Below the pieces are notes generated by a model. It made no database searches. It was not told the DNA's origin and was given only the letters and a program-made list of their open reading frames with translations. The translations under genes were made by a program, and so were the position numbers. A DNA stretch of 64,000 nucleotides from the NCBI RefSeq assembly GCF_053078305.1, contig NZ_CP166879.1; one strand, written 5' to 3'. Shown here piece after piece: positions 4,485 to 56,790 of this stretch (within the stretch, counting starts at the first letter, position 1; each line of letters opens with the position of its first letter).

Positions 4485-4678
4485 AACAGGAGTTTGATGG
4501 TGCGCCTGATGATGCAGGTGATGCGCTTTCGTCAATATCCGAACTGATAAGAGTGGCCTTTTTCTTACTTGGCACGAAAGAATATAAATCAACTGGAATA
4601 GACGTACTGAATATTACTGCTGATTATGCGGAATATATGGCAGAAGTGGATTTAAGAAAGATAACGGACAGGGGGTAA
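4457..4678 (+). CDS. hypothetical protein
   Basis: 73 aa, G-rich RBS upstream, overlaps previous gene end. Confidence 0.45.
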   Translation: MRDDRFNALKQEFDGAPDDAGDALSSISELIRVAFFLLGTKEYKSTGIDVLNITADYAEYMAEVDLRKITDRG

Positions 4679-4679
4679 T

Positions 4680-4913
4680 ATGCGTGATATTTACCACGAA
4701 ACAATAGACCGCGCATTTAGTGCCCTTGCTTACGCTGAAGGTATGTACGAAATATTGCAAATGTGTCTGGAAACATTTGGCGATAATGAGCGTGATGTAA
4801 AGAAGGCGCGGATTATTAAATCACTGATAACTCTCCTTGAACCTGTAATAACAGAGTTGCAGGAAATAGACTTATTGCACGACAGATATAACGAACAGCA
4901 CACCGGAGAATAA
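4680..4913 (+). CDS. hypothetical protein
   Basis: 77 aa, AGGGGG RBS, tightly packed operon. Confidence 0.45.
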   Translation: MRDIYHETIDRAFSALAYAEGMYEILQMCLETFGDNERDVKKARIIKSLITLLEPVITELQEIDLLHDRYNEQHTGE

Positions 4914-4918
4914 AAATA

Positions 4919-5218
4919 ATGAAACTTAAATATCCTGGCTTAACTGCCAGTGGCAACACTCACCCTAAATTTACGCGCGGTGATATTTACCGCGACCAGT
5001 ACGGCGGCACGGTAATGATTAAGGGCGTGGCGGGACGGTGCGTAACTTACCGCCGTGAAGGCTACGAATATGATTGCGTGATGCCTGTTTATCAGTTCCG
5101 GCGTGATTTTTCTCTGGTACAGACCGCGCCGCATAACGTGCCCACCAGCAACGCCAGGGCACGGGCAAACATCCAGAAGCTGAAAACCATGATTAACGGA
5201 TTCAGGGGTAAAAAATGA
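4919..5218 (+). CDS. hypothetical protein
   Basis: 99 aa, GGAG RBS, stop overlaps next start. Confidence 0.45.
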   Translation: MKLKYPGLTASGNTHPKFTRGDIYRDQYGGTVMIKGVAGRCVTYRREGYEYDCVMPVYQFRRDFSLVQTAPHNVPTSNARARANIQKLKTMINGFRGKK

Positions 5219-6624
5219 AACTGGCACCGAACGTAAAACGATTACCGAAAGATAAATACACCGAAGCGGTTATTTTTGCGGGTATTGATGCTCACTCATT
5301 CGCAGAGCATTACATCATTGCACAGGCCAAAAAAGCAGGCGATCCAGTCCCTCCCGTTTATCTGGGGCGTTATCAGTTAAGCGAACTGGATAACCTCCAG
5401 ATTGTTGATGATGGGCGATACAGGGCGACGGTGATACGCGCCGGAAATATTGAAGAGCCGCAGCTGTTAACCATCGCCACGAAACTGGCGAGCGCCGGAG
5501 TCCAGGAGGCGCGGCTACTTTCTGAAAATTTCGAATTGCTGGAGGAATGGAGCGACCAGCTTCCACGGCTTAGGGAGGCATGGGAACGCGGGGAAAGCCT
5601 GGTCATGAAAAAAATTCCCCAGCGAAAAACCACGCTACCGATGAGCGTTGGATCTACCGGATACGACACACAGCTTGATTACGTGGTAAAGGGGATTATT
5701 CCGGCATCGTCGCTTTGCAGCATATACGGGGCGAGCGGTTCCTATAAATCATTCCTTGCCGGATCGTGGGCGTGTCACGTTTCCACGGGCCGCCAGTGGG
5801 GAGGCCGCAGGGTGGCGCATGGCGCTGTTCTCTATGTGGTTGGTGAAGGCGGTATCGGCGTTCCGCGTCGTGTAAAAGCCTGGGAGGTTGTGCACGGTGA
5901 GCAGGTGAAAAATCTGTATCTGGTAAACCGTCCCATCTTTCCGGCTGTCCCGCTTGATGTTGATGAACTGGTTATTGCTGCCAGTCAGGTGGAGAGGGAA
6001 ACGGGTAAACCTGTTCGCATGATTATTCTGGACACGCTGGCGCGTTGCTTTGGCGGCAATGATGAAAATGACTCCCGCGACATGGGGGCATTTATCCGTG
6101 GTTGTGACGAGCTTAAACGGCGCACAGGGGCTACGGTGCTGGTGGTTCACCATTCCGGCAAGGATGAAACAAAGGGGGCGCGTGGTTCCAGTGCATTTCG
6201 TGCATCACTGGACGCTGAATACCGGATACGCAGGGAGGACGCAGGAAGCGAAGCGCTGGTTATCTCATGCACCAAAATGAAGGACGCGGAGGAACTCAAA
6301 GAGGCTGCCTATGATTTGCGGGTGGTGGAGCTTTTTACCGACGCTGACGGGGAGTTAATTACGTCGCTGGTGGTGGTGGATAAGCCGCGCCCTCCCGTTG
6401 AACTGGAGCGCATCGAGGAGGCAGGCAACAAGACGGAAAACCATACCGCGCTATGGGGGTGCATCCGTTCACGCACACAGAACGGCGACAAGTGCACGAT
6501 CCCGCTGTTACGTGACGATATGAAAAAGCTGGGGTATGACACAAAACACCTTAAACGATGGTTAGCCAAACTGGAAAAAGACGACGTGATCTACATTGAC
6601 GGTGATGATGTAGGACCACTGTAA
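5215..6624 (+). CDS. replication initiation protein, RecA-like ATPase (AAA_25/RepA-type) with C-terminal DNA-binding domain
   Basis: 469 aa; Walker A-like GASGSYKS, Walker B MIILD, LVVHHSGKD motif; iterons immediately downstream. Confidence 0.7.
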   Translation: MKLAPNVKRLPKDKYTEAVIFAGIDAHSFAEHYIIAQAKKAGDPVPPVYLGRYQLSELDNLQIVDDGRYRATVIRAGNIEEPQLLTIATKLASAGVQEARLLSENFELLEEWSDQLPRLREAWERGESLVMKKIPQRKTTLPMSVGSTGYDTQLDYVVKGIIPASSLCSIYGASGSYKSFLAGSWACHVSTGRQWGGRRVAHGAVLYVVGEGGIGVPRRVKAWEVVHGEQVKNLYLVNRPIFPAVPLDVDELVIAASQVERETGKPVRMIILDTLARCFGGNDENDSRDMGAFIRGCDELKRRTGATVLVVHHSGKDETKGARGSSAFRASLDAEYRIRREDAGSEALVISCTKMKDAEELKEAAYDLRVVELFTDADGELITSLVVVDKPRPPVELERIEEAGNKTENHTALWGCIRSRTQNGDKCTIPLLRDDMKKLGYDTKHLKRWLAKLEKDDVIYIDGDDVGPL

Positions 6625-6830
6625 AAAGTGGGCATTAAAAGTGGGAAAGGTGGGCGATTTAACGTAATTTTAACAAAATCACCCACTTTCCCACGTGTAT
6701 ATATCCCAAAAAGTGGGCACTAAAAAAATACCTATGAAACAAGATGATATAAATCCCAAACTTCCCACGTTGGACGAAGTGGGAAAACGTAAAAAGTGGG
6801 CGAAAAAAGTGGGTAGAGGTGGGCGAATGA
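6625..6830. repeat. iteron array, putative replication origin of the satellite
   Basis: About ten copies of AAGTGGG(C/A) / GGTGGGCGA in both orientations directly downstream of the rep gene. Confidence 0.7.
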
Positions 6831-7078
6831 CTCAAAAACACAGAGACAGAACAGAGCCAAAATATAAAGCGTTAGACATGACAGAGCACGCTTTAAAGGT
6901 GGCAATCAGGGTAATAGACCGCCACACGCGGGAAGGATACGCGAAGGAACATCCCGACCTGATAAGCGCATTCATGACCACAGCGGCGGCAAACTTTGCC
7001 ACGCTGACAGAACGGGAGATAGCCGAAGCGGAACAGGTAACAACCATCAACGTTAAAACCGGAGAGGTGGAATCATGA
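6827..7078 (+). CDS. hypothetical protein
   Basis: 83 aa from ATG at 6827 (upstream part of track ORF lies in the iterons). Confidence 0.45.
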   Translation: MTQKHRDRTEPKYKALDMTEHALKVAIRVIDRHTREGYAKEHPDLISAFMTTAAANFATLTEREIAEAEQVTTINVKTGEVES

Positions 7079-7485
7079 CAGCACAGATAGCCGCTTACGG
7101 GCGGCTGGTGGACGACCCGCAGGTAAAACAAACCAGCAAGGGCACACCGATGACGCTGGCGCGTATGGCGGTATCTCTGCCATGCAGCCAGGCACAGGAC
7201 GGGCAGGCTACGTTATGGCTATCAGTGATGGCATTTGGTAAGCAGGCCGACTTCCTGGCTAAACATCAAAAAGGCGATGTTGCCAGCGTATCCGGCACGA
7301 TGCAGGTAAGCCAGTGGACCAGACAGAACGGGGAAACGCGGCAGGGTTATCAGGTTATTGCAGACAGTGTAATCAGTGCCCGTGCTGCCCGTCCTGGCGG
7401 GAGCAGACGTACAACCACAGGCACACAGGGTAATCAGCCACCAGCGGGAGGCGATGACCCTTACGGTGACGGTATTCCGTTCTGA
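7075..7485 (+). CDS. ssb: single-stranded DNA-binding protein
   Basis: OB-fold pattern and acidic C-terminal tail DDPYGDGIPF typical of SSB. Confidence 0.75.
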   Translation: MTAQIAAYGRLVDDPQVKQTSKGTPMTLARMAVSLPCSQAQDGQATLWLSVMAFGKQADFLAKHQKGDVASVSGTMQVSQWTRQNGETRQGYQVIADSVISARAARPGGSRRTTTGTQGNQPPAGGDDPYGDGIPF

Positions 7486-7495
7486 GGGGGTGACG

Positions 7496-7768
7496 ATGGT
7501 ACATGACCGCATAGCGGAGGAACTCGAGGCAAAAGGCTTTTACCGGAGGGCGGCGGCGCGATGGGGTGAAGTTATGCAGCTGGTGGAGACAGACAAGGAA
7601 CGGCATCAGGTTACGATGCGACGGCTGGAATGTTCCAGGAAGGCACAGAGGCCACCGGAGCCGCCGGATAACTTCGGAGACCTGAAAAAAGCAGTAGATC
7701 GCACTTATGCCGAAATGGGTATGGATGGTGTAAGCGATGAAATATGGCGTAATTACCCAGACAGCTAA
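7496..7768 (+). CDS. PerC-family transcriptional regulator
   Basis: 90 aa; IAEELEAKGFYRRAAARW motif resembles PerC family. Confidence 0.5.
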   Translation: MVHDRIAEELEAKGFYRRAAARWGEVMQLVETDKERHQVTMRRLECSRKAQRPPEPPDNFGDLKKAVDRTYAEMGMDGVSDEIWRNYPDS

Positions 7769-7774
7769 TCAACA

Positions 7775-7796
7775 GCCGGAGAAATCCGGCTTTTTT
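7775..7796 (+). terminator. rho-independent terminator (GCCGGAGAAATCCGGC + T-run)
   Basis: Perfect hairpin then TTTTTT; identical hairpin recurs at 10049-10071. Confidence 0.65.
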
Positions 7797-8007
7797 GTAC
7801 CCAAAAAAAGCCCGATAAGTACAGGAGGCATCTTATCGGGCTTTTGCATATGAGGTTTTTTTGGTGCACTGACACACATGATCGGGGTAATCATTTCATA
7901 ATTTGCAACACAACTCAACATCATTGCACAAAATGCAATCCTGATTATAATCAGAGCTGGATGAACATCCAGTTCTGATTTTTTAAGTCAAAGAGGAATT
8001 TCTTACT

Positions 8008-8214
8008 ATGGCTGAAGAGAAAAAAGGCGGTGTTTCGGTGTACATAAGCCCCGAAATCGTGGAGGTGCTCAAGCAGCGCCACAAAAAAAACTATGAGGCT
8101 GGCGTAGCGGCTGGACTGGATCCGCTGATGACGCCGGAGCCGTCGATAGGTTCACTTGTGCGCTCTTATTTACTTGCGGCGCTTGGGATGCATAAAAATT
8201 ATGGTGGTGAATAA
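8008..8214 (+). CDS. hypothetical protein
   Basis: 68 aa, AAGAGG RBS, first gene of capsid operon. Confidence 0.45.
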   Translation: MAEEKKGGVSVYISPEIVEVLKQRHKKNYEAGVAAGLDPLMTPEPSIGSLVRSYLLAALGMHKNYGGE

Positions 8215-9269
8215 TGACAGTAAAAGCAATGGCACTTACAACTAACCAGCTTTTCGCGTACCTGAATCGCGGGGATATTGCAGAATTTAAATTCAGTCCG
8301 CTGTTTACCACGCTGTTTTTCCCGAACGTGGCGACCTTCAACACCCAGAACATCATGCTGGACACCCTGGACATTGAAGAGGTTACGATGTCAGCGTTCT
8401 GTTCGCCTATGGTGGGTAGTCAGGTCCAGCGCGATAAAGGGTACGAAACCAGCACGATTAAACCAGGCTACATGAAACCCAAACACGAAATCGATCCAAC
8501 AAAAACCATCATGCGCATGGCTGGAGAAGATCCGGCACAGCTTAACGACCCTACCTACCGCCGTATGCGCCTGATTACTGGCAACATGCGCCGCCAGATA
8601 AACGCCATTAAAGCGCGCGTGGAATGGCTGGCGGTGAATGCGATAACGACCGGAAAAAACATCATTGAGGGCGAAGGCATAGAACGCTATGAAATCGACT
8701 GGAAAATACCGGAAAACTGCATCATAGAGCAGGCCAAGGGTAAAAAATGGTCCGAGCATGATAAAGATATTTACGATCCAATCTATGACATCGAACTATA
8801 CGCAGATCAGGCAGGTTGCCCCGCCAACGTCATGATTATGGGCGCTGAGGTATGGCGCACGTTACGCAGCTTTAAAAAATTCCGCGAACTGTACGATCTT
8901 TCCCGTGGTTCAGAATCCGCCGCAGAACTGGCCTGTAAAAACCTGGGTGAAGTAGTGAGCTTTAAAGGCTATCTGGGCGATATTGCCCTTATCGTCTATT
9001 CCGGCAAATACACTGACAGCGACGGTACCGAAAAATATTTCCTTGAGCCTGATTTGCTGGTCCTGGGTAACACCAACAATAAAGGGCTGGTGGCCTATGG
9101 TGCGATTATGGATCAGGAAGCGGTAAGAACGGGCGCAACGCAAAACATGTTCTACCCGAAAAACTGGATTGAAGACGGCGATCCGGCGATTGAGTACGTT
9201 CAGACGCACAGCGCACCGCAGCCGGTACCGGCAGATATTCGCAAATTTGTTACCGTCAAAATTGCTTAA
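8214..9269 (+). CDS. major capsid protein, lambda gpE-like paralog encoded by the satellite
   Basis: 351 aa; clear similarity to helper E at 14646-15674 (PGYVKPKHE, EDPAQLNDP, VVSFKGY, VLGNT motifs). Confidence 0.85.
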   Translation: MTVKAMALTTNQLFAYLNRGDIAEFKFSPLFTTLFFPNVATFNTQNIMLDTLDIEEVTMSAFCSPMVGSQVQRDKGYETSTIKPGYMKPKHEIDPTKTIMRMAGEDPAQLNDPTYRRMRLITGNMRRQINAIKARVEWLAVNAITTGKNIIEGEGIERYEIDWKIPENCIIEQAKGKKWSEHDKDIYDPIYDIELYADQAGCPANVMIMGAEVWRTLRSFKKFRELYDLSRGSESAAELACKNLGEVVSFKGYLGDIALIVYSGKYTDSDGTEKYFLEPDLLVLGNTNNKGLVAYGAIMDQEAVRTGATQNMFYPKNWIEDGDPAIEYVQTHSAPQPVPADIRKFVTVKIA

Positions 9270-12709: not shown

Positions 12710-14204
12710 TCTTTCACACATTATTGCCGCAGCATTCAATGAACCGCTGCTTCTGGAGCCCGCCTATGCGCGGGTTTTCTTTTGCGCGCTCGGGCGCGAG
12801 ATGGGGGCAGCAAGTCTTTCGTTACCACAACAGCAGGTACAGCTTGATGCTCCCGGGATGCTGGCTGAAACGGACGAGTACATGGCCGGAGGTAAACGAC
12901 CGGCCCGTGTTTACCGGGTGGTGAACGGTATTGCGGTACTGCCGGTGACCGGCACGCTGGTGCACCGGCTGGGTGGTATGCGGCCATTTTCCGGAATGAC
13001 AGGCTATGACGGCATTGTTGCCTGTCTTCAGCAGGCAATGGCGGACACCTCTGTCCGGGGCGTACTGCTGGATATTGACAGTCCGGGCGGGCAGGCCGCC
13101 GGTGCGTTTGACTGCGCTGACATGATTTACCGCCTCCGGCAGCAGAAGCCGGTCTGGGCACTGTGTAATGACACGGCCTGTTCTGCGGCCATGCTGCTGG
13201 CGTCGGCCTGCTCCCGACGGCTGGTTACCCAGACATCCCGTATCGGCTCCATTGGCGTGATGATGGGCCATGTCAGCTATGCCGGTCATCTGGCGCAGGC
13301 CGGAGTGGATATCACGCTGATTTATGCCGGGGCGCATAAGGTGGATGGCAATCAGTTTGAAGCGTTGCCGTCAGAGGTTCGCCAGGACATGCAGCAGCGG
13401 ATTGATGCGGCGCGCCGGATGTTTGCCGAAAAAGTGGCGATGTATACGGGGCTGTCTGTGGAAGCTGTCACGGGGACAGAGGCTGCCGTTTTTGAAGGTC
13501 AGTCCGGTATTGAAGCCGGGCTGGCGGATGAATTAATCAATGCGTCGGATGCCATCAGTGTGATGGCTGCGGCGTTGAACACACATGATACAGGAGGCAC
13601 TATGCCGCAATTAACTGCAACGGAAGCCGCCGCGCAGGAGAACCAGCGAGTGATGGGGATCCTGACGTGTCAGGAAGCGAAAGGACGTGAACAGCTTGCC
13701 ACGATGCTGGCAGGACAACAGGGCATGAGCGTTGAACAGGCCCGGGCGATTCTGGCCGCGGCGGCACCACAGCAGCCGGTGGCATCCGCGCAGAGTGAAG
13801 CCGATCGCATTATGGCGTGTGAAGAAGCTAAAGGTCGTGAACAACTGGCGGCAACGCTGGCGGCGATGCCGGATATGACGGTGGAAAAAGCCCGCCCGAT
13901 CCTGGCGGCTTCACCGCAGGTGGATGCCGGCCCCTCACTCCGTGATCAGATTATGGCTCTGGATGAGGCAAAAGGGGCTGAGGCGCAGGCTGAACAGCTG
14001 GCTGCCTGCCCGGGAATGACAGTGGAGAGCGCCCGGGCTGTGCTGGCTGCGGGATCAGGTAAGGCAGAACCGGTTTCTGCATCAACAACCGCCCTGTTTG
14101 AACATTTCATGGCGAACCATTCACCGGCAGCCGTGCAGGGTGGCGTGTCACAGACGTCGGCAGACGGTGATGCGGACGTGAAAATGCTCATGGCCATGCC
14201 ATGA
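12699..14204 (+). CDS. C: prohead protease (S49/ClpP-like, lambda gpC) with nested in-frame scaffold (Nu3) region
   Basis: 501 aa; peptidase region then three ~40-aa scaffold-like repeats and a C-terminus similar to the satellite Nu3-like protein. Confidence 0.8.
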   Translation: MRRNLSHIIAAAFNEPLLLEPAYARVFFCALGREMGAASLSLPQQQVQLDAPGMLAETDEYMAGGKRPARVYRVVNGIAVLPVTGTLVHRLGGMRPFSGMTGYDGIVACLQQAMADTSVRGVLLDIDSPGGQAAGAFDCADMIYRLRQQKPVWALCNDTACSAAMLLASACSRRLVTQTSRIGSIGVMMGHVSYAGHLAQAGVDITLIYAGAHKVDGNQFEALPSEVRQDMQQRIDAARRMFAEKVAMYTGLSVEAVTGTEAAVFEGQSGIEAGLADELINASDAISVMAAALNTHDTGGTMPQLTATEAAAQENQRVMGILTCQEAKGREQLATMLAGQQGMSVEQARAILAAAAPQQPVASAQSEADRIMACEEAKGREQLAATLAAMPDMTVEKARPILAASPQVDAGPSLRDQIMALDEAKGAEAQAEQLAACPGMTVESARAVLAAGSGKAEPVSASTTALFEHFMANHSPAAVQGGVSQTSADGDADVKMLMAMP

Positions 14205-14240
14205 AGTCAGTGCTGACCATCAATATGAGGTTTTTACAAT

Positions 14241-14588
14241 ATGGTAACGAAAACCATCACTGAACAACGTGCGGAAGTACGTATTTTTGCCGGTAATGAT
14301 CCGGCTCATACCGCCACAGGCAGCAGCGGGATTTCTCAGGCAACACCGGCACTGACGCCCCTGATGCTGGATGAAGCCAGCGGGAAACTGGTGGTCTGGG
14401 ACGGACAGAAAGCCGGTAATGCGGCTGGCATACTGGTACTGCCGCTTGAAGGCACAGAGACGGTGCTGACGTATTACAAGTCGGGGACCTTTGCGACGGA
14501 GGCAATCCGCTGGCCTGAAAGTGTGGATGAACACAAAAAGGCCAACGCCTTTGTCGGCACAGCCCTGAGTCACGCGGCGCTGCCGTAA
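14241..14588 (+). CDS. D: head decoration protein gpD
   Basis: 115 aa; close to remembered lambda D (DPAHTATG, TPLMLD, YKSGTF, WPE). Confidence 0.85.
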   Translation: MVTKTITEQRAEVRIFAGNDPAHTATGSSGISQATPALTPLMLDEASGKLVVWDGQKAGNAAGILVLPLEGTETVLTYYKSGTFATEAIRWPESVDEHKKANAFVGTALSHAALP

Positions 14589-14645
14589 CACGTTATCAGG
14601 CCACCGCGTTGGCCTGACTGATTTCTGAATGAAAGGAACTGATTT

Positions 14646-15674
14646 ATGGGATTGTTTACGACCCGCCAGTTACTCGGTTATACCGAACAAAAAGTGAAAT
14701 TTCGTGCGCTGTTTCTGGAGCTGTTTTTCCGCCGTACGGTGAATTTCCACACCGAAGAGGTGATGCTGGATAAAATTACCGGAAAAACGCCGGTGGCAGC
14801 CTATGTCTCCCCGGTTGTTGAAGGAAAAGTGCTGCGTCATCGTGGTGGTGAAACCCGCGTGTTGCGTCCGGGCTACGTCAAGCCGAAACACGAATTTAAT
14901 TACCAGCAGGCGGTGGAGCGCCTTCCCGGTGAAGATCCGGCGCAACTGAACGACCCGGCCTACCGTCGTCTGCGTATCATCACTGATAACCTCAAACAGG
15001 AAGAGCATGCCATTGTCCAGGTGGAGGAAATGCAGGCGGTGAATGCCGTGCTGTATGGCAAATACACCATGGAAGGGGAGCAGTTTGATACTGTCGAGGT
15101 GGATTTCGGGCGCTCTGAAGGAAATAACATTGAGCAGGCTGACGGTAAAAAATGGTCTGAGCAGGACCGTGATACGTTTGATCCGACGCATGATATTGAC
15201 CTCTACTGCGATCAGGCCAGCGGTCTTGTGAATATCGCCATTATGGACGGTACGGTCTGGCGTCTGCTGAATGGCTTTAAGTTGTTCCGCGAAAAACTGG
15301 ATGCCCGTCGCGGCTCAAATTCACAACTCGAAACAGCAGTGAAAGACCTGGGGTCGGTGGTGTCCTTCAAGGGGTATTACGGCGATCTGGCCATTGTGGT
15401 GGCGAAAACGTCTTATGTGGCAGAGGACGGTACCGAAAAACGTTATCTGCCGGAGGGCACGCTGGTCCTGGGAAATACGTCAGCGGAGGGCATCCGTTGC
15501 TATGGTGCCATTCAGGATGCGCAGGCGTTGTCCGAAGGTGTGGTGGCCTCTTCCCGTTATCCGAAACACTGGATGACCGTGGGCGATCCGGCCCGTGAAT
15601 TCACCATGACGCAGTCCGCGCCGCTGATGGTGCTGCCGGATCCGGATGAGTTTGTGGTGGTACAGGTGAAATAA
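14646..15674 (+). CDS. E: major capsid protein gpE
   Basis: 342 aa; high similarity to remembered lambda E. Confidence 0.9.
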   Translation: MGLFTTRQLLGYTEQKVKFRALFLELFFRRTVNFHTEEVMLDKITGKTPVAAYVSPVVEGKVLRHRGGETRVLRPGYVKPKHEFNYQQAVERLPGEDPAQLNDPAYRRLRIITDNLKQEEHAIVQVEEMQAVNAVLYGKYTMEGEQFDTVEVDFGRSEGNNIEQADGKKWSEQDRDTFDPTHDIDLYCDQASGLVNIAIMDGTVWRLLNGFKLFREKLDARRGSNSQLETAVKDLGSVVSFKGYYGDLAIVVAKTSYVAEDGTEKRYLPEGTLVLGNTSAEGIRCYGAIQDAQALSEGVVASSRYPKHWMTVGDPAREFTMTQSAPLMVLPDPDEFVVVQVK

Positions 15675-15725
15675 TCCGGGAGCGGGGGCGAAATGCCCCC
15701 GTGTCTTTTTTCACAGGGGGCTGAG

Positions 15726-16109
15726 ATGGCAACAAAAGAAGAAAATCTGAATCGTCTTCGTCAACTGGCTGGTCTGCTGGGGCGCGAGGCGGATATGTCG
15801 GGGAGTGCTGCGGATATTGCTCTGCGTGTGTCTGAGTGGGAAGAGGAGCTTGCAGCTTCCCGGGAGGGCATTATGCACTCTGATGAGAGCGGGTCTGATC
15901 AAAATGACACAGACGATGGTGAGCAGTTGAACAACACGGATTCTCCGGATGATGTTAAAGCCGTCCGGGTACGGAAGTGCCTGCAAGTGATGGGGTATTG
16001 CCCGGAGACAGGTCGTCCCGTTGAGCTGGCGTTACGGGGTATGCGTGTTCTGGTGCCATCATCACTGGCAACGGCCATGATACAGCACGGAACGGCTGAA
16101 TATGCGTGA
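15726..16109 (+). CDS. FI: DNA packaging protein FI
   Basis: Position and architecture match lambda FI; ATG at 15726 with AGGGGG RBS. Confidence 0.7.
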   Translation: MATKEENLNRLRQLAGLLGREADMSGSAADIALRVSEWEEELAASREGIMHSDESGSDQNDTDDGEQLNNTDSPDDVKAVRVRKCLQVMGYCPETGRPVELALRGMRVLVPSSLATAMIQHGTAEYA

Positions 16110-16455
16110 TTTTCAGAATGCCTTTGATGCTGCCCTCGCCGGGGTGGACAGTACGATCGTTGAAGTGATGGGGATCCGTGCGCAGTTCACCTCCGGTGCA
16201 CAGCGTGGCGGCGAAGTTCAGGGGGTTTTTGACGATCCGGAGTCGCTGGGTTTTGCCGGTGGCGGGGTCCGTATTGAAGGAAGCAGCCCGTCATTATTTG
16301 TGCGGACGGATACGGTGCGTGCTGTGCGGCGTGGTGACACGCTGACCATTAACGGCGAGATGTTCTGGGTGGATCGTGTTTCTCCGGATGACGGGGGCAG
16401 CTGTTATCTCTGGCTCAACCGTGGGCAACCACCCGCTGTTAACCGGCGACGATAA
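16102..16455 (+). CDS. FII: head-tail joining protein FII
   Basis: 117 aa; near-identical motifs to remembered lambda FII (GDTLTI...FWVDRVSPDDGGSC). Confidence 0.9.
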   Translation: MRDFQNAFDAALAGVDSTIVEVMGIRAQFTSGAQRGGEVQGVFDDPESLGFAGGGVRIEGSSPSLFVRTDTVRAVRRGDTLTINGEMFWVDRVSPDDGGSCYLWLNRGQPPAVNRRR

Positions 16456-16470
16456 ACGCAGGGTGAAATT

Positions 16471-16953
16471 ATGGCGATAAAAGGGCTTGATCAGGCGATT
16501 GATAATCTGAGCCGGGTTCGTAAAAACGCCATTCCTGCTGCTTCAGCAATGGCCATTAACCGCGTGGCCACAACGGCAATAAATCAGTCTGCGTCACAGG
16601 TTGCCCGTGAGACAAAGGTACGCCGGAAACTGGTAAAGGAAAGGGCCAGGCTGAAAAGGGCCACGGTAAAAAATCCGCAGGCCAGAATCAAAGTTAACCG
16701 GGGGGATTTGCCTGTAATCAGGCTGGGTAATGCGCGGGTTGTCCTGTCCCGACGCAGGCGACGTAAAAAGGGGCAGCGTTCATCCCTGAAAGGTGGCGGC
16801 AGTGTGCTTGTGGTGGGTAACCGTCGCATTCCCGGCGCGTTTATTCAGCAACTGAAAAATGGGCGGTGGCATGTCATGCAGCGTGTGGCCGGGAAAAACC
16901 GTTACCCCATTGATGTGGTAAAAATCCCGATGGCGGTGCCTGTAACCAGGTAA
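16471..16953 (+). pseudogene. Z: tail protein Z, upstream part truncated by Mu-like insertion (ends with 3 foreign codons)
   Basis: Matches remembered lambda Z to ...IPMAVP, then VTR-stop from inserted DNA; remainder found at 56278-56391. Confidence 0.8.
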
Positions 16954-17981: not shown

Positions 17982-18227
17982 GTGAGTCTTATTGAAGATT
18001 GGTCTTCCGCCGATATAAAGGCAGCCTTAGAAAAACGCGATACCAATTTGTCACGTTTATCAAGGGAAAATAATTTGCAGCCTAGGACTTTGGGTAATGC
18101 TTTGCGAGTTCCCTACCCTAAAGGTGAAAAGATAATTGCTAGGGCTATAGGTGTAGAGCCACAGGTTATTTGGCCTACTAGATATGAACGACGTGCGCGG
18201 AGGAAATATGTGGGTTGCAATGACTGA
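17982..18227 (+). CDS. ner: Ner-like DNA-binding protein
   Basis: 81 aa; GTG start with AGGGGG RBS; resembles Ner/Nlp family. Confidence 0.7.
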   Translation: MSLIEDWSSADIKAALEKRDTNLSRLSRENNLQPRTLGNALRVPYPKGEKIIARAIGVEPQVIWPTRYERRARRKYVGCND

Positions 18228-20292
18228 ATTGATTTCATTCAGTGACCTACCTAGTTCTTTGGCAGGTCTGCACAAAAAAGCAAAGAGGGAAGCGTGGAAA
18301 ACGCGGCTAAAACCAGGGGTAAAAGGGAAAGTTTTAGAGTGTGAAATAGGAGCTTTGCCTTTAACTGTTCAGCAGGCAGTACGCGAACGCCATGCCCTGC
18401 AACTGATGACGCAAAAAGCCGATGAATCACCGGCTCCGGTGGTGACAAAGGCCAGACGCTCACCTGCCGTGGTTGATGCGGTGGAGGCATATCGCGGATC
18501 ACCCCAACTGATGGTCGAACGCCTCAATGCCCTGACTGAAAATCAGCGCCAGGTGGCTGATGCACGAATCGCGATCGTCAGCGAAGTTCTGAAAGTCGCG
18601 CAACAACCTGGTTTCAGCTGTGCGAAGGCTATCCGGTTTATCGTTGACAACCTGGCACGTTCGCAGTTGGACGAGCGCATTGTGGCAATGGTTGAGACGG
18701 CGAACGCCAAAAAGGGAAACAGCCGCGCGTTAAGTGAAATCACGCTGAAACGCTGGATTGCGGCCTTTAACAAGGCGCAGAACGCCGCTGAACGCCTGCT
18801 TTTACTGGCACCGGGTAAGCGCCAGGAAATAAAAGCCGAAGATATTAACTGGCTGCCCGAATTTCTGGCGCAGTATCGCCAGTCAAACGGCCGACCAATG
18901 ACCGAGGCTTACGAGGATTTTGTCGCTGAATGGCAGCACCGGCACGCCGATGAGCCTTATATGCTCGATATCATGCCGTCTTATGACACCATTCGCCGCG
19001 CAATGAAGAAACTGCCGGAAGTGGTGAAACAAAAAGGCCGGGTGACCGGCAGTGAATACCGCCAGCTTGAGGGATTCACGCGCCGCGACTGGTCAAAAAT
19101 GCCGGTGAATTATGTCTGGATTGGTGACGGTCACGGCATGAAGCTGAAATGCGCACACCCGGTTCACGGTCGGCCATTTGCACCGGAAGTGACCTTTGTT
19201 ATCGACGGTGGCACGCGCTTTGTGGTGGGCTGGAGCCTTGACCTGGCTGAAAATGTTTTCGCCGTAGCCGGTGCCATACAGCACGGCATTCGCCATCACG
19301 GCAAACCGTTTCTGTATTACTCGGATAACGGCTCCGGGGAAACCGCCGACATCCTGGATAAGGAGGTTGTGGGGATACTGCCGCGACTGGGGATTAATCA
19401 CCCGACCGGGATTGCCGGTAATCCGCAGGGACGAGGCATTATCGAACGGCTTAACCGCACATTACCGATGCGCATAGCCCGTAAATACCGCACCTATTTC
19501 GGGAAAGGTGCAGATCGCGAGACGTTACGCAAAACCAACCGCGATTTACGCTCGGCATTTACTGCCCTGCAACAGGGCAAACGGCTGAACGCCCGGCAGC
19601 AGTCAGCGATGCGTGATTTACCGTCCTGGTCTGAACTGATTGATGCCATTCGTGACGGTGTTGAGTGGTACAACAACCGGCCGCACGATGAATTACCGGT
19701 GAAGCCGAACGGCAAGCATTACAGCCCGGCGGAGTTCAGAAAAAAACGCCTGGCGGAAGAGGACACGGAAATTGAATGGCTGTCCGATGTTGAGCTGCGG
19801 GATATGTTCCGGCCGATGGTGGAACGCCCTGTAAGACGCTGTGAAATACGCTGGCTGAATAATATTTACTACGCGCCCGAGCTGCGTGACGAGCATGGTC
19901 GTAAGGTGCTTATCAGCTATGACATTCATGATGCCGAACGAATTACCGTACGTCGCCTGGATGGCAGCGTGATTTGCGAGGCGGTATGGGACGGTAATAA
20001 ACGCGAAGCCTTCCCGGTTAGCGCGGAATACTACAAACAGCAGCAACGCCTTAAAGGCATGCGTAAACGCGCAGAGGAAAAAATCCGTGATGCCGAGGAT
20101 GAGGTTGTCAACGTGCTGGAGCACAAGCCGCAGGAGCCCTGGCTGGAAAACATATACCGCCCTGTGGGTAATACGGTGACCGTTCAGCAACCGGTCGCTG
20201 ACGATGAACCTGATGAAGAATACGAGCGTAATTTCCAGCGGGGATTGCAGTTGCTGGAAGCGAAATTAAAAGAAAATGACCCGCTGGCCTGA
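18208..20292 (+). CDS. A: Mu-type DDE transposase A
   Basis: ~694 aa; position after ner, repressor-like N-terminal domain, large catalytic core. Confidence 0.8.
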   Translation: MWVAMTELISFSDLPSSLAGLHKKAKREAWKTRLKPGVKGKVLECEIGALPLTVQQAVRERHALQLMTQKADESPAPVVTKARRSPAVVDAVEAYRGSPQLMVERLNALTENQRQVADARIAIVSEVLKVAQQPGFSCAKAIRFIVDNLARSQLDERIVAMVETANAKKGNSRALSEITLKRWIAAFNKAQNAAERLLLLAPGKRQEIKAEDINWLPEFLAQYRQSNGRPMTEAYEDFVAEWQHRHADEPYMLDIMPSYDTIRRAMKKLPEVVKQKGRVTGSEYRQLEGFTRRDWSKMPVNYVWIGDGHGMKLKCAHPVHGRPFAPEVTFVIDGGTRFVVGWSLDLAENVFAVAGAIQHGIRHHGKPFLYYSDNGSGETADILDKEVVGILPRLGINHPTGIAGNPQGRGIIERLNRTLPMRIARKYRTYFGKGADRETLRKTNRDLRSAFTALQQGKRLNARQQSAMRDLPSWSELIDAIRDGVEWYNNRPHDELPVKPNGKHYSPAEFRKKRLAEEDTEIEWLSDVELRDMFRPMVERPVRRCEIRWLNNIYYAPELRDEHGRKVLISYDIHDAERITVRRLDGSVICEAVWDGNKREAFPVSAEYYKQQQRLKGMRKRAEEKIRDAEDEVVNVLEHKPQEPWLENIYRPVGNTVTVQQPVADDEPDEEYERNFQRGLQLLEAKLKENDPLA

Positions 20293-28492: not shown

Positions 28493-28694
28493 ATGGCTGG
28501 CTGACTGCCTGGTCCCTCCTGCGCCGGAGCCGTTCACGTTTGGGGCATCGGTCACTTACAACCTGCAACTGCTGGCGGTGATCAAGAACTGCAACGTGGA
28601 CAAGGCCAGTATTCGTCGTCTGGAGGCGCGGCGACAACATGAATTTACTGATATGGCCGGAACGCCTGCTGTTCCGGCAGGAAAGACGAAGTAA
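28323..28694 (+). CDS. o-spanin lipoprotein (Rz1-like), overlapping i-spanin in another frame
   Basis: Lipobox LIGCAG after signal peptide, Pro-rich, ATG at 28323. Confidence 0.55.
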   Translation: MKNNRTFSTARGSRALSAGRWQQCLRPLPLFLMMWLIGCAGPSVKYVPVKPVPIPAEWLADCLVPPAPEPFTFGASVTYNLQLLAVIKNCNVDKASIRRLEARRQHEFTDMAGTPAVPAGKTK

Positions 28695-28704
28695 GGAAAA
28701 AGGT

Positions 28705-28932
28705 ATGGATGATTCAGATCGTGCTCAGGCTGTGATGGAGCGGGGATCAGAACGCGCCCTTTGTAACCGGCTGACACGTAAGCGCCGGGCAGTGGATGCT
28801 CCGGGCAGACGTGTCTGCGCAGACTGTGGCGGAGAGATCCCCGCCGCACGTCTTGTTGCTGTGCCGGATGCCATCCGTTGTGTGAACTGCCAGAACATCA
28901 TGGAGGCCCGTCATGTGGGTCAGCATCGTTAA
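28705..28932 (+). CDS. TraR/DksA-family C4 zinc-finger protein
   Basis: CADCGGEIPAARL...CVNCQ motif. Confidence 0.6.
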   Translation: MDDSDRAQAVMERGSERALCNRLTRKRRAVDAPGRRVCADCGGEIPAARLVAVPDAIRCVNCQNIMEARHVGQHR

Positions 28933-29221
28933 AGATTATGTTGTGCCGATCCTTTCGGCGACGGCAACCGCTGGCGGGATATTCATGGCGCTGATGCGCA
29001 AAACGTTTGTCCCCCGCGAGGCCTTTGAAAAACTCTCCGACCGCGTTGAGAAGGTGGAAACCCGCCTGTCGTCACTGCCGACAGAAGCCGAGGTCAACCG
29101 TCTGAATGTGGAAATCGTGACCCTGCGGGGTGAACTGAAAACCACGAACGCCACGCTCCGCTCTGTCTCCTATCAGAACGAACTGCTGCTGGAGCAGGCT
29201 GTAAGGAAAAAAACGCAATGA
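28913..29221 (+). CDS. hypothetical protein with TM segment and coiled coil
   Basis: 102 aa; Mu gp25-like position. Confidence 0.4.
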   Translation: MWVSIVKDYVVPILSATATAGGIFMALMRKTFVPREAFEKLSDRVEKVETRLSSLPTEAEVNRLNVEIVTLRGELKTTNATLRSVSYQNELLLEQAVRKKTQ

Positions 29222-29508
29222 GTGATTTCATTACTGAAGATCAGCGTCTGGTCATTCTGCGGTCGCTGGCAGATTACAACGGTGAACTGGGTGAATCCGT
29301 GCTCCAGGACTGTCTGGATGATTACGGCCACCGCGTGTCCCGCGACACCGTTCACACCCACATAGCCTGGCTTGCCGAGCAGGGACTGGTGCGCAAACGC
29401 GTTCTGATTAACGGTTATTTCATCGCGGAACTGACCGGTCGTGGGCAGGATGTGGCGGAAGGCCGGGCCTGCGTTCCGGGTGTGAAGAAACCACGCGCAA
29501 GGGGGTAA
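29218..29508 (+). CDS. hypothetical protein
   Basis: 96-aa ORF, operon context. Confidence 0.4.
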   Translation: MSDFITEDQRLVILRSLADYNGELGESVLQDCLDDYGHRVSRDTVHTHIAWLAEQGLVRKRVLINGYFIAELTGRGQDVAEGRACVPGVKKPRARG

Positions 29509-29510
29509 CG

Positions 29511-30092
29511 ATGGACAAGCCGACGCGTGGTCGTGTACGCAAGGTGGATTTGCTCCCCGACAGCATCCGTAAGCCGCTGCTGGAAATGCTGCGTGAAAAA
29601 CGTCTGACGCAGGTCCAGATCCGCGAGGAAATCAACCGTCTGATCCGTGAGGCGGGCCTGCCGGAAGAGCAGCAGCTTTCACCGGCGGCCATCAGCCGGG
29701 AAGCCTCCCGTAATGAGCTGATTGCCCGTAACCTGCGTGATTTACGCGAGCAGACAAAAGCCATGATGGCCGAACTGGGGGACAAGCCAACCGGTGAAAC
29801 CACAGCGCTGATTCTGGAAATGTCCCGCGCCCTGATGTACCGCCGCCTGCGTGCCGCGACCGAATCTCTGAACAGCGACAGCGACGTGGATATGCGCCTC
29901 ATCAAAGACATCCTCCTGTCAGCACAGCGTGCGGAAAGTGCCGCCGAGCGCAGCATTAAGCGTGAAAAAGAAATCCGGGCCGCATTTGCTGAAGAGATGG
30001 CAAACGCGGTCACCGACGAGCTGCGCGGCGTGGATGGCATGAGCGAGCAGATAGAATTTCGTATCAGGCAGATGCTGCTGGGTAAAGCGTAG
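29511..30092 (+). CDS. Mu gp27-like protein (putative small terminase subunit)
   Basis: 193 aa immediately upstream of large terminase. Confidence 0.55.
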   Translation: MDKPTRGRVRKVDLLPDSIRKPLLEMLREKRLTQVQIREEINRLIREAGLPEEQQLSPAAISREASRNELIARNLRDLREQTKAMMAELGDKPTGETTALILEMSRALMYRRLRAATESLNSDSDVDMRLIKDILLSAQRAESAAERSIKREKEIRAAFAEEMANAVTDELRGVDGMSEQIEFRIRQMLLGKA

Positions 30093-30102
30093 GAGGTGAA
30101 TC

Positions 30103-30351
30103 ATGGCAACAGATAACCGCTCACTGATGATCTGTGCCCATCAGAAGGCATTCAGTCTTGCAACACAGTTACCTCCTGAAACCATAAAAGTGTGTCGTGA
30201 GTTGACTGAACTCTGCATTGCCGGGGAAATCTCCCTGAAACAACTGCATTCGCTGCTGGCAGAGGCTGTCACTGATGAATTGAGCAGCGTGGACGTGATG
30301 ACTGAAGAGCTTGAGTCCCGAATCAGGGGCATTCTGACAGGTAAAGCATGA
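30103..30351 (+). CDS. hypothetical protein, paralog of gp27 C-terminal region
   Basis: AVTDELSSVDVMTEELESRIRGILTGKA parallels gp27 end AVTDELRGVDGMSEQIEFRIRQMLLGKA. Confidence 0.4.
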   Translation: MATDNRSLMICAHQKAFSLATQLPPETIKVCRELTELCIAGEISLKQLHSLLAEAVTDELSSVDVMTEELESRIRGILTGKA

Positions 30352-32015
30352 TGAGCAAAGCCAAAGAAACGTCTCCTTCACTGATGCAAATGACGCCTCC
30401 CCGCAAAATTGATCTGGCCGGTGAAAAAGCCCTGCTGGGCGTGGATGTGCCGGACAGCCTTGATTTACCCGGTGATATGCCGGTGTTTCTGGATTATCAG
30501 GCCCGCTGGTTTGAGGATGAAAGTCAGGTCTGCATCGCGGAAAAATCCCGACGCACCGGGCTGACCTGGGCGGAAGCCGGGCGTAACGTCATTACCGCCG
30601 CAAAGCCTAAGCGTCGTGGTGGCCGTAATGTGTTTTATGTGGGGTCAAAGCAGGAGATGGCGCTGGAATATATTTCTGCCTGCGCCCTGTTCTCCCGTGC
30701 CTTTAACCAGCTGGCAGATGCTGATGTGTATGAGCAGACCTTCTGGGATCGGAATAAAAAAGAAGAAATTCTGACCTACATGATCCGCTTTCCGAACAGT
30801 GGATTCAAAATTCAGGCACTGTCTTCCCGTCCGTCAAACCTGCGCGGCCTTCAGGGGGATGTGGTGATTGATGAAGCCGCGTTCCACGAGTCACTGGATG
30901 AGCTTCTCAAGGCGGCAATGGCGCTCACCATGTGGGGCGCGCGCGTGCGTATTATCTCCACGCATAACGGCGTCGATAATCTGTTTAATCAGTACATTCA
31001 GGAAGCCCGCGAGGGGCGCAAGGATTACAGCGTCCACCGCATAACCCTGGATGATGCCATTGCGGACGGGCTGTACCGTCGTATCTGTTATGTCACCGGC
31101 CGCGAATGGTCACCGGAAAGCGAGCAGAAGTGGCGTGATGATCTCTACAAAAACGCCCCGACCCGTGAGGATGCCGACGAGGAATACGGCTGTATCCCGA
31201 AAAAATCCGGCGGTGCCTATATTCCTCACGCGCTTATTGAAATGGCGATGCTCCGCGACATCCCGATTCTGACGTTTGAAGCCCCGGACGACTTCATCAG
31301 CCGTGCCGCATGGCTGCGTGAATCGGAGGTTTTAACCTGGTGTGAAGAACATTTAAAACCGCTTTTAGAGGCGTTAAATCCCCGTTCCCGCTTCAGCTTC
31401 GGGGAAGACTTTGCCCGCACCGGTGACCTCTCCTGCTTTGTGCTGCTGGAAATCACTGAATCCCTGGCAAAACGCGAGGTGTTTCGCGTGGAGCTGCGCA
31501 ACCTGCCGTATGCCCAGCAGGAGCAGGTGATGATGTACATCCTGACCCGCGTTCCGGCGCTGGTCGGTGCGGCGTTCGACGCCACCGGTAACGGCGGCTA
31601 TCTGGCCGAAGCCGCGCTGCTGGCCTTTGGCCCGGACATCATCGACTGCGTGATGTTATCGCCGAAGTGGTACGGCGAGTGGATGCCAAAACTGAAGGCC
31701 GAGTTTGAGGATCAGAATATCCTCGTCGCCCGCCATCAGACCACGCTTGATGATTTGCGCCATGTGAAGGTGGTGAACGGTATCCCGCAAATCGACAAGG
31801 GGCGTACGAAGGACCAGAACGCAACGGCTGTGAACGCCCGCCGCCATGGCGATTTTGCCGTGGCGCTCTGTATGGCAAACCGGGCGTCGTACATGGAGGG
31901 CTTCATCCTGGATGAATCAGCCTGTCAGGCGCTGCCGGAGCGGTCGCGGGCCATGGAGGGCGGTTATCGTGATGACGATGAGGCATATCATGAATTTGAT
32001 CGGGGGTGCTGGTAG
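30348..32015 (+). CDS. terminase large subunit (Mu gp28-like)
   Basis: 555 aa; ATPase region then nuclease region, position before portal. Confidence 0.8.
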   Translation: MMSKAKETSPSLMQMTPPRKIDLAGEKALLGVDVPDSLDLPGDMPVFLDYQARWFEDESQVCIAEKSRRTGLTWAEAGRNVITAAKPKRRGGRNVFYVGSKQEMALEYISACALFSRAFNQLADADVYEQTFWDRNKKEEILTYMIRFPNSGFKIQALSSRPSNLRGLQGDVVIDEAAFHESLDELLKAAMALTMWGARVRIISTHNGVDNLFNQYIQEAREGRKDYSVHRITLDDAIADGLYRRICYVTGREWSPESEQKWRDDLYKNAPTREDADEEYGCIPKKSGGAYIPHALIEMAMLRDIPILTFEAPDDFISRAAWLRESEVLTWCEEHLKPLLEALNPRSRFSFGEDFARTGDLSCFVLLEITESLAKREVFRVELRNLPYAQQEQVMMYILTRVPALVGAAFDATGNGGYLAEAALLAFGPDIIDCVMLSPKWYGEWMPKLKAEFEDQNILVARHQTTLDDLRHVKVVNGIPQIDKGRTKDQNATAVNARRHGDFAVALCMANRASYMEGFILDESACQALPERSRAMEGGYRDDDEAYHEFDRGCW

Positions 32016-55258: not shown

Positions 55259-55459
55259 ATGTATCGAAACATACGGTGCCGACACTGCAATAAGCTACTG
55301 GCACGGGCCAGTTTCAGTTATCTGGAAGTAAAATGTCCGCGCTGTAAAACCCTCAATCAAATCACATCTCCGAGCGCCACAGAGCACCCCACATACACAA
55401 GGAAATCCTGTCGTGGGGAACAGAAAGCAAGTCACATCCCGTATCATCAGCACGCCTGA
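55259..55459 (+). CDS. com: Com zinc-finger translational activator of mom
   Basis: CRHCNKLL...CPRCK zinc finger; overlaps start of mom. Confidence 0.75.
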
Positions 55460-56783: not shown

Positions 56784-56790
56784 GGATGAT

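What the first reader, a model, noticed from the sequence alone, without database searches (positions are those of the whole stretch)
29511..30351. Partial tandem duplication of the gp27-like C-terminal domain as a separate small ORF
The 82-aa ORF at 30103-30351 ends with a sequence closely parallel to the C-terminus of the preceding gp27-like protein, both directly upstream of the large terminase. A free-standing copy of the presumed TerL-interacting tail could modulate packaging.
Basis: seen in the sequence. Interest (0 to 1): 0.35.

Follow-up and report, generated by a model that had tools for sequence, protein, structure and literature searches.

The report
Chimeric small ORF carrying terminase tail
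[quoted passage not shown] This is real but fairly ordinary phage mosaicism, not a new packaging regulator.

Summary
gp27 residues 163-193 and ORF82 residues 52-82 share 19 of 31 residues (E 4e-10), with copies exactly 259 bp apart. It is not a simple tandem duplication, because only 96 of the 259 bp are similar.

ORF82 residues 1-51 belong to a family of small ORFs that sit right after gp27 in other Mu-like prophages (hhalign 91%, E 1e-6). None of those carries the tail. The tail is the most conserved part of gp27 from E. coli Mu to Pseudomonas phages.

ORF82's copy resembles the consensus tail of the common short allele (gp27 directly coupled to terL) more than its own gp27's tail. So ORF82 is most likely a recombinant fusion inside a variable cassette at the terminase junction. 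That junction is a known accessory-gene slot (Tab/anti-Tab in JBD26).

ORF82 occurs in 24 of 229 E. coli genomes carrying this region. It is an orphan (phrog_30922, unknown function) and evolves under weak constraint (pN/pS 0.37-0.9, against 0.01 for gp27). It has lost near-invariant tail residues.

The most likely role is a dispensable late-operon passenger whose reading frame relays ribosomes into terL. Binding to TerL is untested.

The parts
29511..30092 (+). gp27-like small terminase gene (193 aa)
   Evidence: PF11985 E 3e-33 over the full length. phrog_426 'terminase small subunit' E 9e-55. 57% identical to Mu gp27. AF2 model has pLDDT 81: a three-helix N-terminal domain, three long helices, a loop at 172-178 and a terminal helix at 179-192. 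pN/pS is about 0.01 among 10 loci.
29997..30092 (+). Tail copy 1: gp27 residues 162-193 plus the stop (…MANAVTDELRGVDGMSEQIEFRIRQMLLGKA*)
   Evidence: This is the most conserved segment of the family. Nearly invariant positions are E170, G173, D175, G176, S178, E179, E182, I185, L189, L190, G191 and A193 in 33 diverse gp27 proteins. This allele's last 13 residues (IEFRIRQMLLGKA) deviate from the family consensus LE.RIRGILLGKA.
30091..30102 (+). Shine-Dalgarno AGGAGGTG overlapping the gp27 TAG stop, then a 4-nt spacer (AATC) to the ORF82 ATG
   Evidence: Read directly from the sequence. It is conserved in L-type and L008-type loci; the start codon is ATG or GTG. No sigma-70-like promoter was found in 28500-31000, so the ORF sits inside the late operon.
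30103..30255 (+). ORF82 N-module (residues 1-51), a member of the 'family A' slot ORFs
   Evidence: hhalign of the ORF82 family against family A gives probability 91%, E 1e-6, aligning ORF82 3-51 to family A 5-53. Family-A ORFs hit phrog_30922 at positions 5-48 (E 2.6e-14 to 7e-3). There are no other homologues among 1.84 billion representative proteins. pN/pS is 0.54 overall and 0.92 for codons 17-51.
30256..30351 (+). Tail copy 2: ORF82 residues 52-82 plus the stop (LAEAVTDELSSVDVMTEELESRIRGILTGKA*)
   Evidence: 19/31 identical to copy 1, E 4e-10. 22/31 (71%) identical to the short-allele gp27 tail and 70% to the tail of Vibrio phage ZX4290. 75/96 nt identical to the short-allele tail against 63/96 to its own gp27 tail. 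pN/pS is 0.37, with 8 amino-acid-variable codons against 1 in copy 1.
30348..32015 (+). Large terminase gene (555 aa). Its ATG overlaps the ORF82 stop (ATGA).
   Evidence: phrog_2 'terminase large subunit' E 8e-43. 73% identical to Mu gp28. An ATGA or TGATG overlap with the upstream ORF is present in all 10 L-type loci and in the short allele.
30396..30446 (+). Conserved TerL N-terminal motif PPRKIDLAGEKALLGVD (residues 17-33). It follows a hypervariable leader (residues 1-16).
   Evidence: The motif is present in all loci whose gp27 has the …LLGKA tail. It is absent in the three loci whose gp27 has the alternative …LLGIA tail. The leader varies in length and sequence among close relatives.
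30033..30407 (+). Variable cassette (L allele), exchanged by recombination between otherwise near-identical prophages
   Evidence: The gp27 gene from its start through tail nt 36 differs at 1 base from the short-allele prophage of E. coli 97-3250. Similarity drops from tail nt 37 and returns at about TerL nt 57. At least three alleles exist: short, L (ORF82) and L008-type (ORF67 plus a 120-bp gap).

Best explanation
[quoted passage not shown] That junction is a recurrent slot for small accessory genes.

Its first 51 codons come from a 'family A' slot gene that normally follows gp27. Its last 31 codons, together with the first ~17 codons of terL, come from a gp27-terL junction of the common short type. 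That explains why a second gp27 tail sits directly in front of terL.

Shown: the two-part homology, the allele structure, the rarity of the ORF and its weak constraint.

Inferred: ORF82 is translated from its own strong Shine-Dalgarno site. Its stop overlaps the terL start, so it takes over the job gp27 has in the short allele, which is delivering terminating ribosomes to the terL start codon. The reading frame is therefore kept open while the amino-acid sequence drifts. The tail copy may still bind TerL weakly, but it is not under the constraint that the real small-terminase tail experiences.
For: - Two-part homology: residues 52-82 match the gp27 tail (E 4e-10). Residues 3-51 match family-A slot ORFs (91%, E 1e-6).
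- Single origin: of 80 loci with this TerL type, 63 have one tail copy and 13 have two. All 13 are the E. coli L type.
- Mosaic structure: the gp27 gene is essentially identical up to tail nt 36 between the window and a short-allele prophage. The short-allele tail then matches ORF82's tail better than gp27_L's (49/60 against 42/60 nt). The terL 5' ends are homologous but diverged.
- A possible parent allele exists. L008 has the same gp27 tail, the same junction and the same N-module, but with its own C-terminus and no second tail.
- The junction is an insertion hot spot. About 60 loci have a gap of -4 to +5 bp and about 35 have inserts of 30-630 bp. In JBD26 the same slot holds anti-Tab and Tab (PMC10884400).
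- Constraint is weak: pN/pS is 0.37 for the ORF82 tail and 0.54-0.92 for the N-module, against 0.01 for gp27 in the same 10 loci.
- The ORF is rare: 24 of 229 E. coli genomes with this region carry it.
- Coupling signals are conserved: the SD AGGAGGTG before ORF82 and the ATGA/TGATG overlap with terL.
Against: - The ORF is intact in all 24 complete genomes and all 10 distinct alleles examined, and its pN/pS is below 1. Some protein-level selection is therefore not excluded. Even so, no stop codon in at least 51 substitutions is expected about 15% of the time by chance.
- Translational coupling is not obligatory for terL. L008- and L060-type alleles have 32-120 bp gaps before terL.
- The direction of events is not settled. 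The short allele could instead be a deletion product of recombination between the two tail copies of an L-like ancestor, since the 259-bp indel equals the repeat period.
- No expression or binding data exist.
Confidence: 0.55

Rival explanations
1. Free-standing tail as a packaging modulator. ORF82 uses its gp27-like tail to bind the TerL N-terminal region. It competes with, or substitutes for, the small terminase tail and so tunes terminase assembly or pac cleavage.
For: - The copied segment is the most conserved part of gp27.
- The tail type co-occurs with the TerL N-terminal PRKIDL…LGVD motif.
- In lambda and P22 the small terminase C-terminus binds TerL, and in P22 the site lies in the first 23 TerL residues (PMC9611059).
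- ORF82 keeps the hydrophobic face of the terminal helix (L70, I74, I77, L78) and the …GKA end.
- The tail's pN/pS of 0.37 is below 1.
- It is made immediately before TerL in the same operon.
Against: - Near-invariant residues are replaced: G176 to V, L190 to T, R172/G173 to S.
- Eight of 31 tail codons vary in amino acid among close alleles, against one in gp27's tail.
- About 90% of sister prophages lack the ORF, and the L008 allele works with the gp27_L tail alone.
- It has a single origin with no recurrence among the 80 loci classified.
- The AF2 fusion model was uninformative (pLDDT 46).
Confidence: 0.17
2. Antidote-type accessory gene, analogous to anti-Tab. The family-A module neutralises a defence protein encoded on the minus strand of the same slot in related prophages. 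ORF82 would be an orphan antidote that still protects the induced phage from such proteins, and the tail is incidental.
For: - In JBD26 the gene immediately after the small terminase on the plus strand is anti-Tab, and Tab lies on the minus strand before terL.
- Family-A ORFs occupy that same position in several lineages.
- Minus-strand ORFs lie next to terL in L053/L054 (135-162 aa) and L008 (39 aa, possibly a remnant). A separate minus-strand family lies there in L049, L056 and L057.
Against: - There is no sequence similarity to anti-Tab or Tab (E > 0.1), and they belong to different PHROGs (13614 and 14530 against 30922).
- There is no minus-strand partner or promoter in the window.
- Family A occurs without any minus-strand ORF in L037, L059 and L052.
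- pN/pS for N-module codons 17-51 is 0.92, and the C-terminal third of the family-A protein has been replaced.
- There are no PADLOC hits below E 0.03.
Confidence: 0.15
3. In-place partial tandem duplication of the 3' end of gp27, after which the upstream part of the second copy diverged beyond recognition.
For: The two tails are direct repeats 259 bp apart, and the indel separating the long and short alleles is exactly one repeat period.
Against: - The 163 bp upstream of copy 2 show only background identity to gp27 at the repeat offset. They are instead homologous to an independent ORF family.
- Copy 2 is closer to another allele's tail than to its neighbour's.
- Synonymous divergence between the copies is high.
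Confidence: 0.05

Closest known systems
anti-Tab / Tab locus of Pseudomonas Mu-like phage JBD26 (Patel et al. 2024, PMC10884400)
   Same: [quoted passage not shown] A small plus-strand ORF immediately follows the small terminase in the late operon. The genes are dispensable and patchily distributed among close relatives.
   Different: No sequence similarity and different PHROGs. The window has no minus-strand partner gene or promoter. ORF82 is separated from gp27 by 10 nt with its own SD rather than a 1-bp overlap. anti-Tab has no terminase-derived tail.
C-terminal TerL-binding regions of small terminases (lambda gpNu1, P22 gp3; review PMC9611059)
   Same: A short C-terminal element follows an N-terminal DNA-binding domain and helical oligomerisation region (AF2 model). 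It is extremely conserved and is paired with a conserved motif at the extreme N-terminus of TerL.
   Different: Binding has not been shown for Mu gp27 or for ORF82. There is no sequence or fold match to solved small terminases. In those systems the tail has not been described as a separate polypeptide (my own knowledge; not searched).
Phage morons and mosaic junction ORFs (general concept; my own knowledge)
   Same: A small ORF with its own ribosome-binding site inserted between two conserved late genes. It is present or absent among near-identical phages, is bounded by recombination joints, and is weakly constrained.
   Different: Classic morons carry their own promoter and terminator and are expressed from the prophage. 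ORF82 has neither and is fused to a fragment of a neighbouring essential gene.
phrog_30922 and NCBI 'hypothetical protein' entries such as WP_238932565 and WP_073527718
   Same: ORF82 is a full-length member (E 3e-47), 77-93% identical to the E. coli entries.
   Different: These catalogue entries carry no function. I found no record of the chimeric make-up; no literature search for the family was run.

Membership tests
Phage_Mu_Gp27 / small terminase (PF11985, phrog_426) | Full-length match to the about 175-position profile (N-terminal DNA-binding helices, long helices, tail) | tested here: not met
   gp27 (29511-30092) meets it. ORF82 has no Pfam hit at E <= 0.1 and shares only the last 31 residues. 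ORF82 is therefore not a small terminase.
phrog_30922 (unknown function) | Full-length profile match | tested here: met
   E 3e-47 over positions 2-82 of 82.
Family-A slot ORFs (defined here: small plus-strand ORFs directly after gp27 in L008, L037, L049, L052, L053, L054, L056, L059) | Homology of the N-terminal ~50 residues (motif L..SAH..AF..A…CR…I..G) | tested here: met
   hhalign probability 91%, E 1e-6, ORF82 3-51 to family A 5-53. HMM hits of family-A members to phrog_30922 positions 5-48.
Family-A slot ORFs | Family-specific C-terminus, with no gp27-like tail | tested here: not met
   ORF82 alone ends in the gp27 tail. The others end differently. ORF82 is therefore a chimeric derivative.
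anti-Tab (JBD26 gp30, phrog_13614) | Sequence homology to anti-Tab | tested here: not met
   BLASTP of anti-Tab and Tab against the slot ORFs of the related loci (ORF82 itself was not in that subject set) gave E > 0.1. anti-Tab falls in phrog_13614, whereas ORF82 matched only phrog_30922 at E <= 0.1.
anti-Tab (JBD26 gp30, phrog_13614) | Plus-strand gene immediately after the small terminase in the late operon | tested here: met
   ORF82 starts 10 nt after the gp27 stop, on the same strand, with no promoter.
anti-Tab (JBD26 gp30, phrog_13614) | Accompanied by a minus-strand defence gene (tab) with its own promoter before terL | tested here: not met
   ORF82 abuts terL. The only minus-strand ORFs lie antisense inside ORF82, and there is no promoter-like site.
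anti-Tab (JBD26 gp30, phrog_13614) | Binds and neutralises Tab | not testable with these tools
   Needs two-hybrid and plaque assays.
Tandem duplication | Similarity across the whole repeat unit (259 bp) | tested here: not met
   Only 96 nt are similar (63/96). The remaining 163 nt are at background identity.
TerL-binding C-terminal tail of small terminases | Physical binding to the large terminase | tested here: inconclusive
   The AF2 model of TerL(1-306)-linker-ORF82 with a paired alignment had pLDDT 46 and was unusable. Only indirect support exists: conservation and co-occurrence with the TerL N-terminal motif.

The most novel reading that the evidence does not exclude
ORF82 is a functional, free-standing mimic of the small-terminase docking tail, joined to a small helical module. 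Made just before TerL, it would occupy the TerL N-terminal docking site. That could tune terminase assembly, or shield TerL from competitors such as satellites or host factors that exploit the same site. This would be a packaging regulator created by exon-shuffling-like recombination.
Probability: 0.12. Interest if true: 0.6.

Novelty: new variant of a known kind. Interest (0 to 1): 0.3.

Why it matters
The finding gives a clean, datable example of how phage mosaic recombination creates a new ORF by fusing an accessory gene to a fragment of an essential neighbour.

It also marks the 31-residue gp27 tail and the TerL N-terminal PRKIDL…LGVD motif as the likely small-large terminase interface in Mu-like phages, which has not been mapped experimentally.

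And it shows that the terminase junction of enterobacterial Mu-like prophages is an accessory-gene slot laid out like the Tab/anti-Tab locus of Pseudomonas phages. That makes it a reasonable place to look for new assembly-targeting defence and antidote pairs.

If ORF82 did bind TerL it would be a natural tool for probing that interface. As it stands, the ORF itself looks dispensable.

Tried and rejected
- Simple tandem duplication: rejected, because there is no similarity beyond the 96-nt tail at the 259-bp offset.
- Distant homologues of ORF82: a word-indexed search found 9 clusters, all E. coli. An exhaustive profile search of 1.84 billion representatives found 4, all family members or fragments.
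- Pfam and PADLOC gave nothing useful for ORF82 or the slot ORFs.
- AF2 docking by fusion (TerL 1-306, a 30-residue linker, ORF82; 31 paired rows): pLDDT 46, discarded.
- Foldseek of the gp27 model against the PDB: no match with E <= 0.001. A sequence search of the PDB also found none.
- Similarity of the slot ORFs to JBD26 anti-Tab and Tab: none.
- Promoter scan of 28500-31000: none found. The terminator-like hits are inside coding sequence and I did not treat them as meaningful.
- ORF maintenance as evidence of function: no stop in at least 51 substitutions has a chance probability of about 0.15, so this is not decisive.
- A search for the canonical Mu left-end sequence failed. The prophage ends were instead mapped against an uninterrupted lambdoid prophage.

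Full report
**What is there**

The window carries a 39.3-kb Mu-like prophage (about 16,941-56,278) inserted into a tail gene of a lambdoid E. coli prophage. In its late operon the order is:
- a DksA/TraR-type gene, a DUF2730 gene and a winged-helix gene;
- gp27 at 29511-30092;
- an 82-codon ORF at 30103-30351;
- the large terminase at 30348-32015;
- the portal gene from 32006.

gp27 is a full-length PF11985 / phrog_426 'terminase small subunit' protein, 57% identical to Mu gp27. The large terminase is 73% identical to Mu gp28.

gp27 residues 163-193 and ORF82 residues 52-82 align without gaps at 19/31 identities, E 4e-10. At the DNA level 63/96 bases match at an offset of exactly 259 bp. Of the 20 conserved codon positions (19 amino-acid codons plus the stop), 11 differ synonymously. 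The profile of the ORF82 family (phrog_30922) independently finds gp27 162-193 at E 6e-8.

**It is not a simple tandem duplication**

Upstream of the tail, the 259-bp offset gives only background identity. ORF82 residues 3-51 instead align with a family of small plus-strand ORFs that I call family A. These sit immediately after gp27 in other Mu-like prophages (L008, L037, L049, L052, L053, L054, L056, L059).

The support for that homology:
- hhalign probability 91%, E 1e-6;
- family-A members hit phrog_30922 at positions 5-48 (E 2.6e-14 to 7e-3).

None of the family-A ORFs has the gp27 tail. Among 80 loci with this TerL type, 63 have one tail copy and 13 have two. All 13 are the E. coli ORF82 type. 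Outside this narrow lineage ORF82 has no homologues: 9 clusters among 5.8 billion proteins, and 4 hits among 1.84 billion representatives.

**What the tail is**

In an alignment of 33 gp27 proteins sharing 25-97% identity, the nearly invariant positions are concentrated in the last 24 residues. The motif (D/E)ELRG.DGMSE.LE.RI(R/K)..LLGKA is almost unchanged from E. coli Mu to Vibrio and Pseudomonas phages whose gp27 is otherwise only about 30% identical.

An AF2 model of gp27 (pLDDT 81) shows:
- a three-helix N-terminal domain;
- three long helices;
- a loop at 172-178 (RGVDGMS);
- a terminal helix at 179-192.

Loci with this tail have a conserved PRKIDL…LGVD motif at the TerL N-terminus. Three loci with a different tail (…LLGIA) lack it. 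In lambda and P22 the small-terminase C-terminus binds TerL, and in P22 the site is in the first 23 TerL residues (PMC9611059). Calling the tail the TerL-docking element is therefore a reasonable inference, not a demonstration. My attempt to dock it with a fused AF2 model failed (pLDDT 46).

**Allele structure**

The region occurs in 229 of 5,426 complete E. coli genomes. Only 24 carry the ORF82 N-module. The rows I inspected among the rest are a short allele in which gp27 overlaps terL directly (TGATG), 259 bp shorter.

Comparing the window with the short-allele prophage of strain 97-3250:
- The gp27 gene is identical from its start through tail nt 36, apart from 1 base.
- From tail nt 37 on, the short-allele tail matches ORF82's tail better (49/60) than the window's own gp27 tail (42/60).
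- The first ~57 nt of terL are homologous but diverged. Identity returns to 100% at the PRKIDL codons.

The short-allele tail (…SEQLESRIKGILLGKA) is the family consensus. The window's gp27 tail (…SEQIEFRIRQMLLGKA) deviates from it.

A third allele (L008 type) has the same gp27 tail, the same stop/SD/ATG junction and a homologous N-module. But its ORF (67 aa) ends differently. It is followed by 120 bp containing a short minus-strand ORF, and then by a terL with yet another leader.

The simplest history is an illegitimate, in-frame joint between an L008-like allele (gp27, family-A ORF, terL) and a short-type allele (gp27 tail, terL). The reverse direction is not excluded: the short allele could arise by recombination between the two tail copies.

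**The slot**

Across the 93 loci where gp27 and terL could both be located, the gp27-terL distance is -4 to +5 bp in about 60. About 35 carry inserts of 30-630 bp. The inserts hold recurrent small families:
- family A, on the plus strand;
- family B, on the plus strand (phrog_21398);
- a minus-strand family C next to terL (phrog_25148);
- a 135-162-aa minus-strand ORF in L053 and L054.

This layout mirrors JBD26. There, anti-Tab follows the small terminase on the plus strand, and Tab, a tail-assembly blocker with its own promoter, lies on the minus strand before terL (PMC10884400). There is no sequence similarity to Tab or anti-Tab. The window itself has no minus-strand partner and no promoter.

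**Selection**

Figures for the same 10 L-type loci:

| Segment | Synonymous-only variable codons | Amino-acid-variable codons | pN/pS |
|---|---|---|---|
| gp27 tail | 13 | 1 | 0.01 |
| ORF82 tail | 3 | 8 | 0.37 |
| ORF82 N-module (codons 2-51) | 5 | 18 | 0.54 |
| ORF82 N-module, codons 17-51 only | not tabulated | not tabulated | 0.92 |

Pairwise dN/dS for whole genes agrees: gp27 0-0.05, TerL 0.06-0.11, ORF82 0.4-1.05. ORF82 replaces near-invariant tail residues: G176 to V, L190 to T, R172/G173 to S.

The ORF is nevertheless open and 82 codons long in all alleles examined. It has a conserved SD, and an ATGA or TGATG overlap with terL. No stop codon in at least 51 substitutions would occur by chance about 15% of the time, so openness alone is weak evidence of function.

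**Interpretation**

What it is (high confidence): a recombination-made chimera of a slot accessory ORF and a gp27 tail, sitting inside a variable cassette.

How it works (moderate confidence): a dispensable late-operon passenger. Its translated frame hands ribosomes to the terL start, as gp27 does in the short allele.

Rivals:
- an orphan antidote of the anti-Tab kind;
- a true tandem duplication, which is largely refuted.

None of the functional readings can be settled without binding and genetic tests.

**Novelty**

The protein family is already catalogued without function (phrog_30922; NCBI hypothetical proteins). I did not find its chimeric origin or the tail paralogy described in the papers I consulted. 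The phenomenon is ordinary phage mosaicism at a slot already known in Pseudomonas Mu-like phages. Interest is modest.

Noticed in passing
window 16,941-56,278 (flanks 12,936-16,940 and 56,279-62,300): The Mu-like prophage (39.3 kb; MuA at 18184-20292, Mom at 55413-56150) is inserted inside a tail gene of a lambdoid prophage. An uninterrupted copy in E. coli Z1323MEC0001 (L100) matches both flanks with a 4-bp overlap, consistent with a transposition target duplication.
   Followed up: partly
L049, L052, L053, L054, L056, L057, L008 (slot between gp27 and terL): The terminase junction of enterobacterial Mu-like prophages holds recurrent small gene families. These are plus-strand families A and B (phrog_21398), a minus-strand family C next to terL (phrog_25148), and a 135-162-aa minus-strand ORF. 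The layout matches anti-Tab/Tab of JBD26 but without sequence similarity, so they are candidate defence and antidote pairs.
   Followed up: partly
L008 3990-4324 (also L009-L011; L035 and L060 have the same terL leader without the ORF): This is a third allele of the junction. ORF67 has the ORF82-like N-module but no gp27 tail. It is followed by a 120-bp gap with a 39-aa minus-strand ORF, and a different TerL leader (MSKRTGEEK…).
   Followed up: partly
L037 2286-2483 and other family-A ORFs: Family-A ORFs weakly match positions 917-974 of phrog_220, a 1338-position 'minor head protein and DNA pilot' (MuF-type) profile (E 2.5e-5 to 0.05). The meaning is unknown.
   Followed up: no
window 30348-30398 and TerL homologues P0012-P0131: The 7-30 TerL residues before the conserved PPRKIDL motif vary greatly in length and sequence, even among proteins that are 81-97% identical elsewhere.
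   Followed up: no
window 299-9269 and 14646-15674: Upstream of the lambdoid head genes lie an integrase (299-1540), an Ash-family protein (2843-4237) and an AAA_25 protein (5215-6624). There is also a second major-capsid-E gene (8214-9269) besides the one at 14646-15674. This could be a second element or a satellite next to the lambdoid prophage.
   Followed up: no
window 29420-30040, minus strand: A 206-aa antisense ORF overlaps gp27. It is also open in L008. It is Ser/Arg-rich, most likely a by-product of the codon composition of gp27 rather than a gene.
   Followed up: no
L029 about 2247; L035 about 2033: Two IMG/VR contigs have gp27 interrupted by a stop codon. This is either a pseudogene or a sequencing error.
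   Followed up: no
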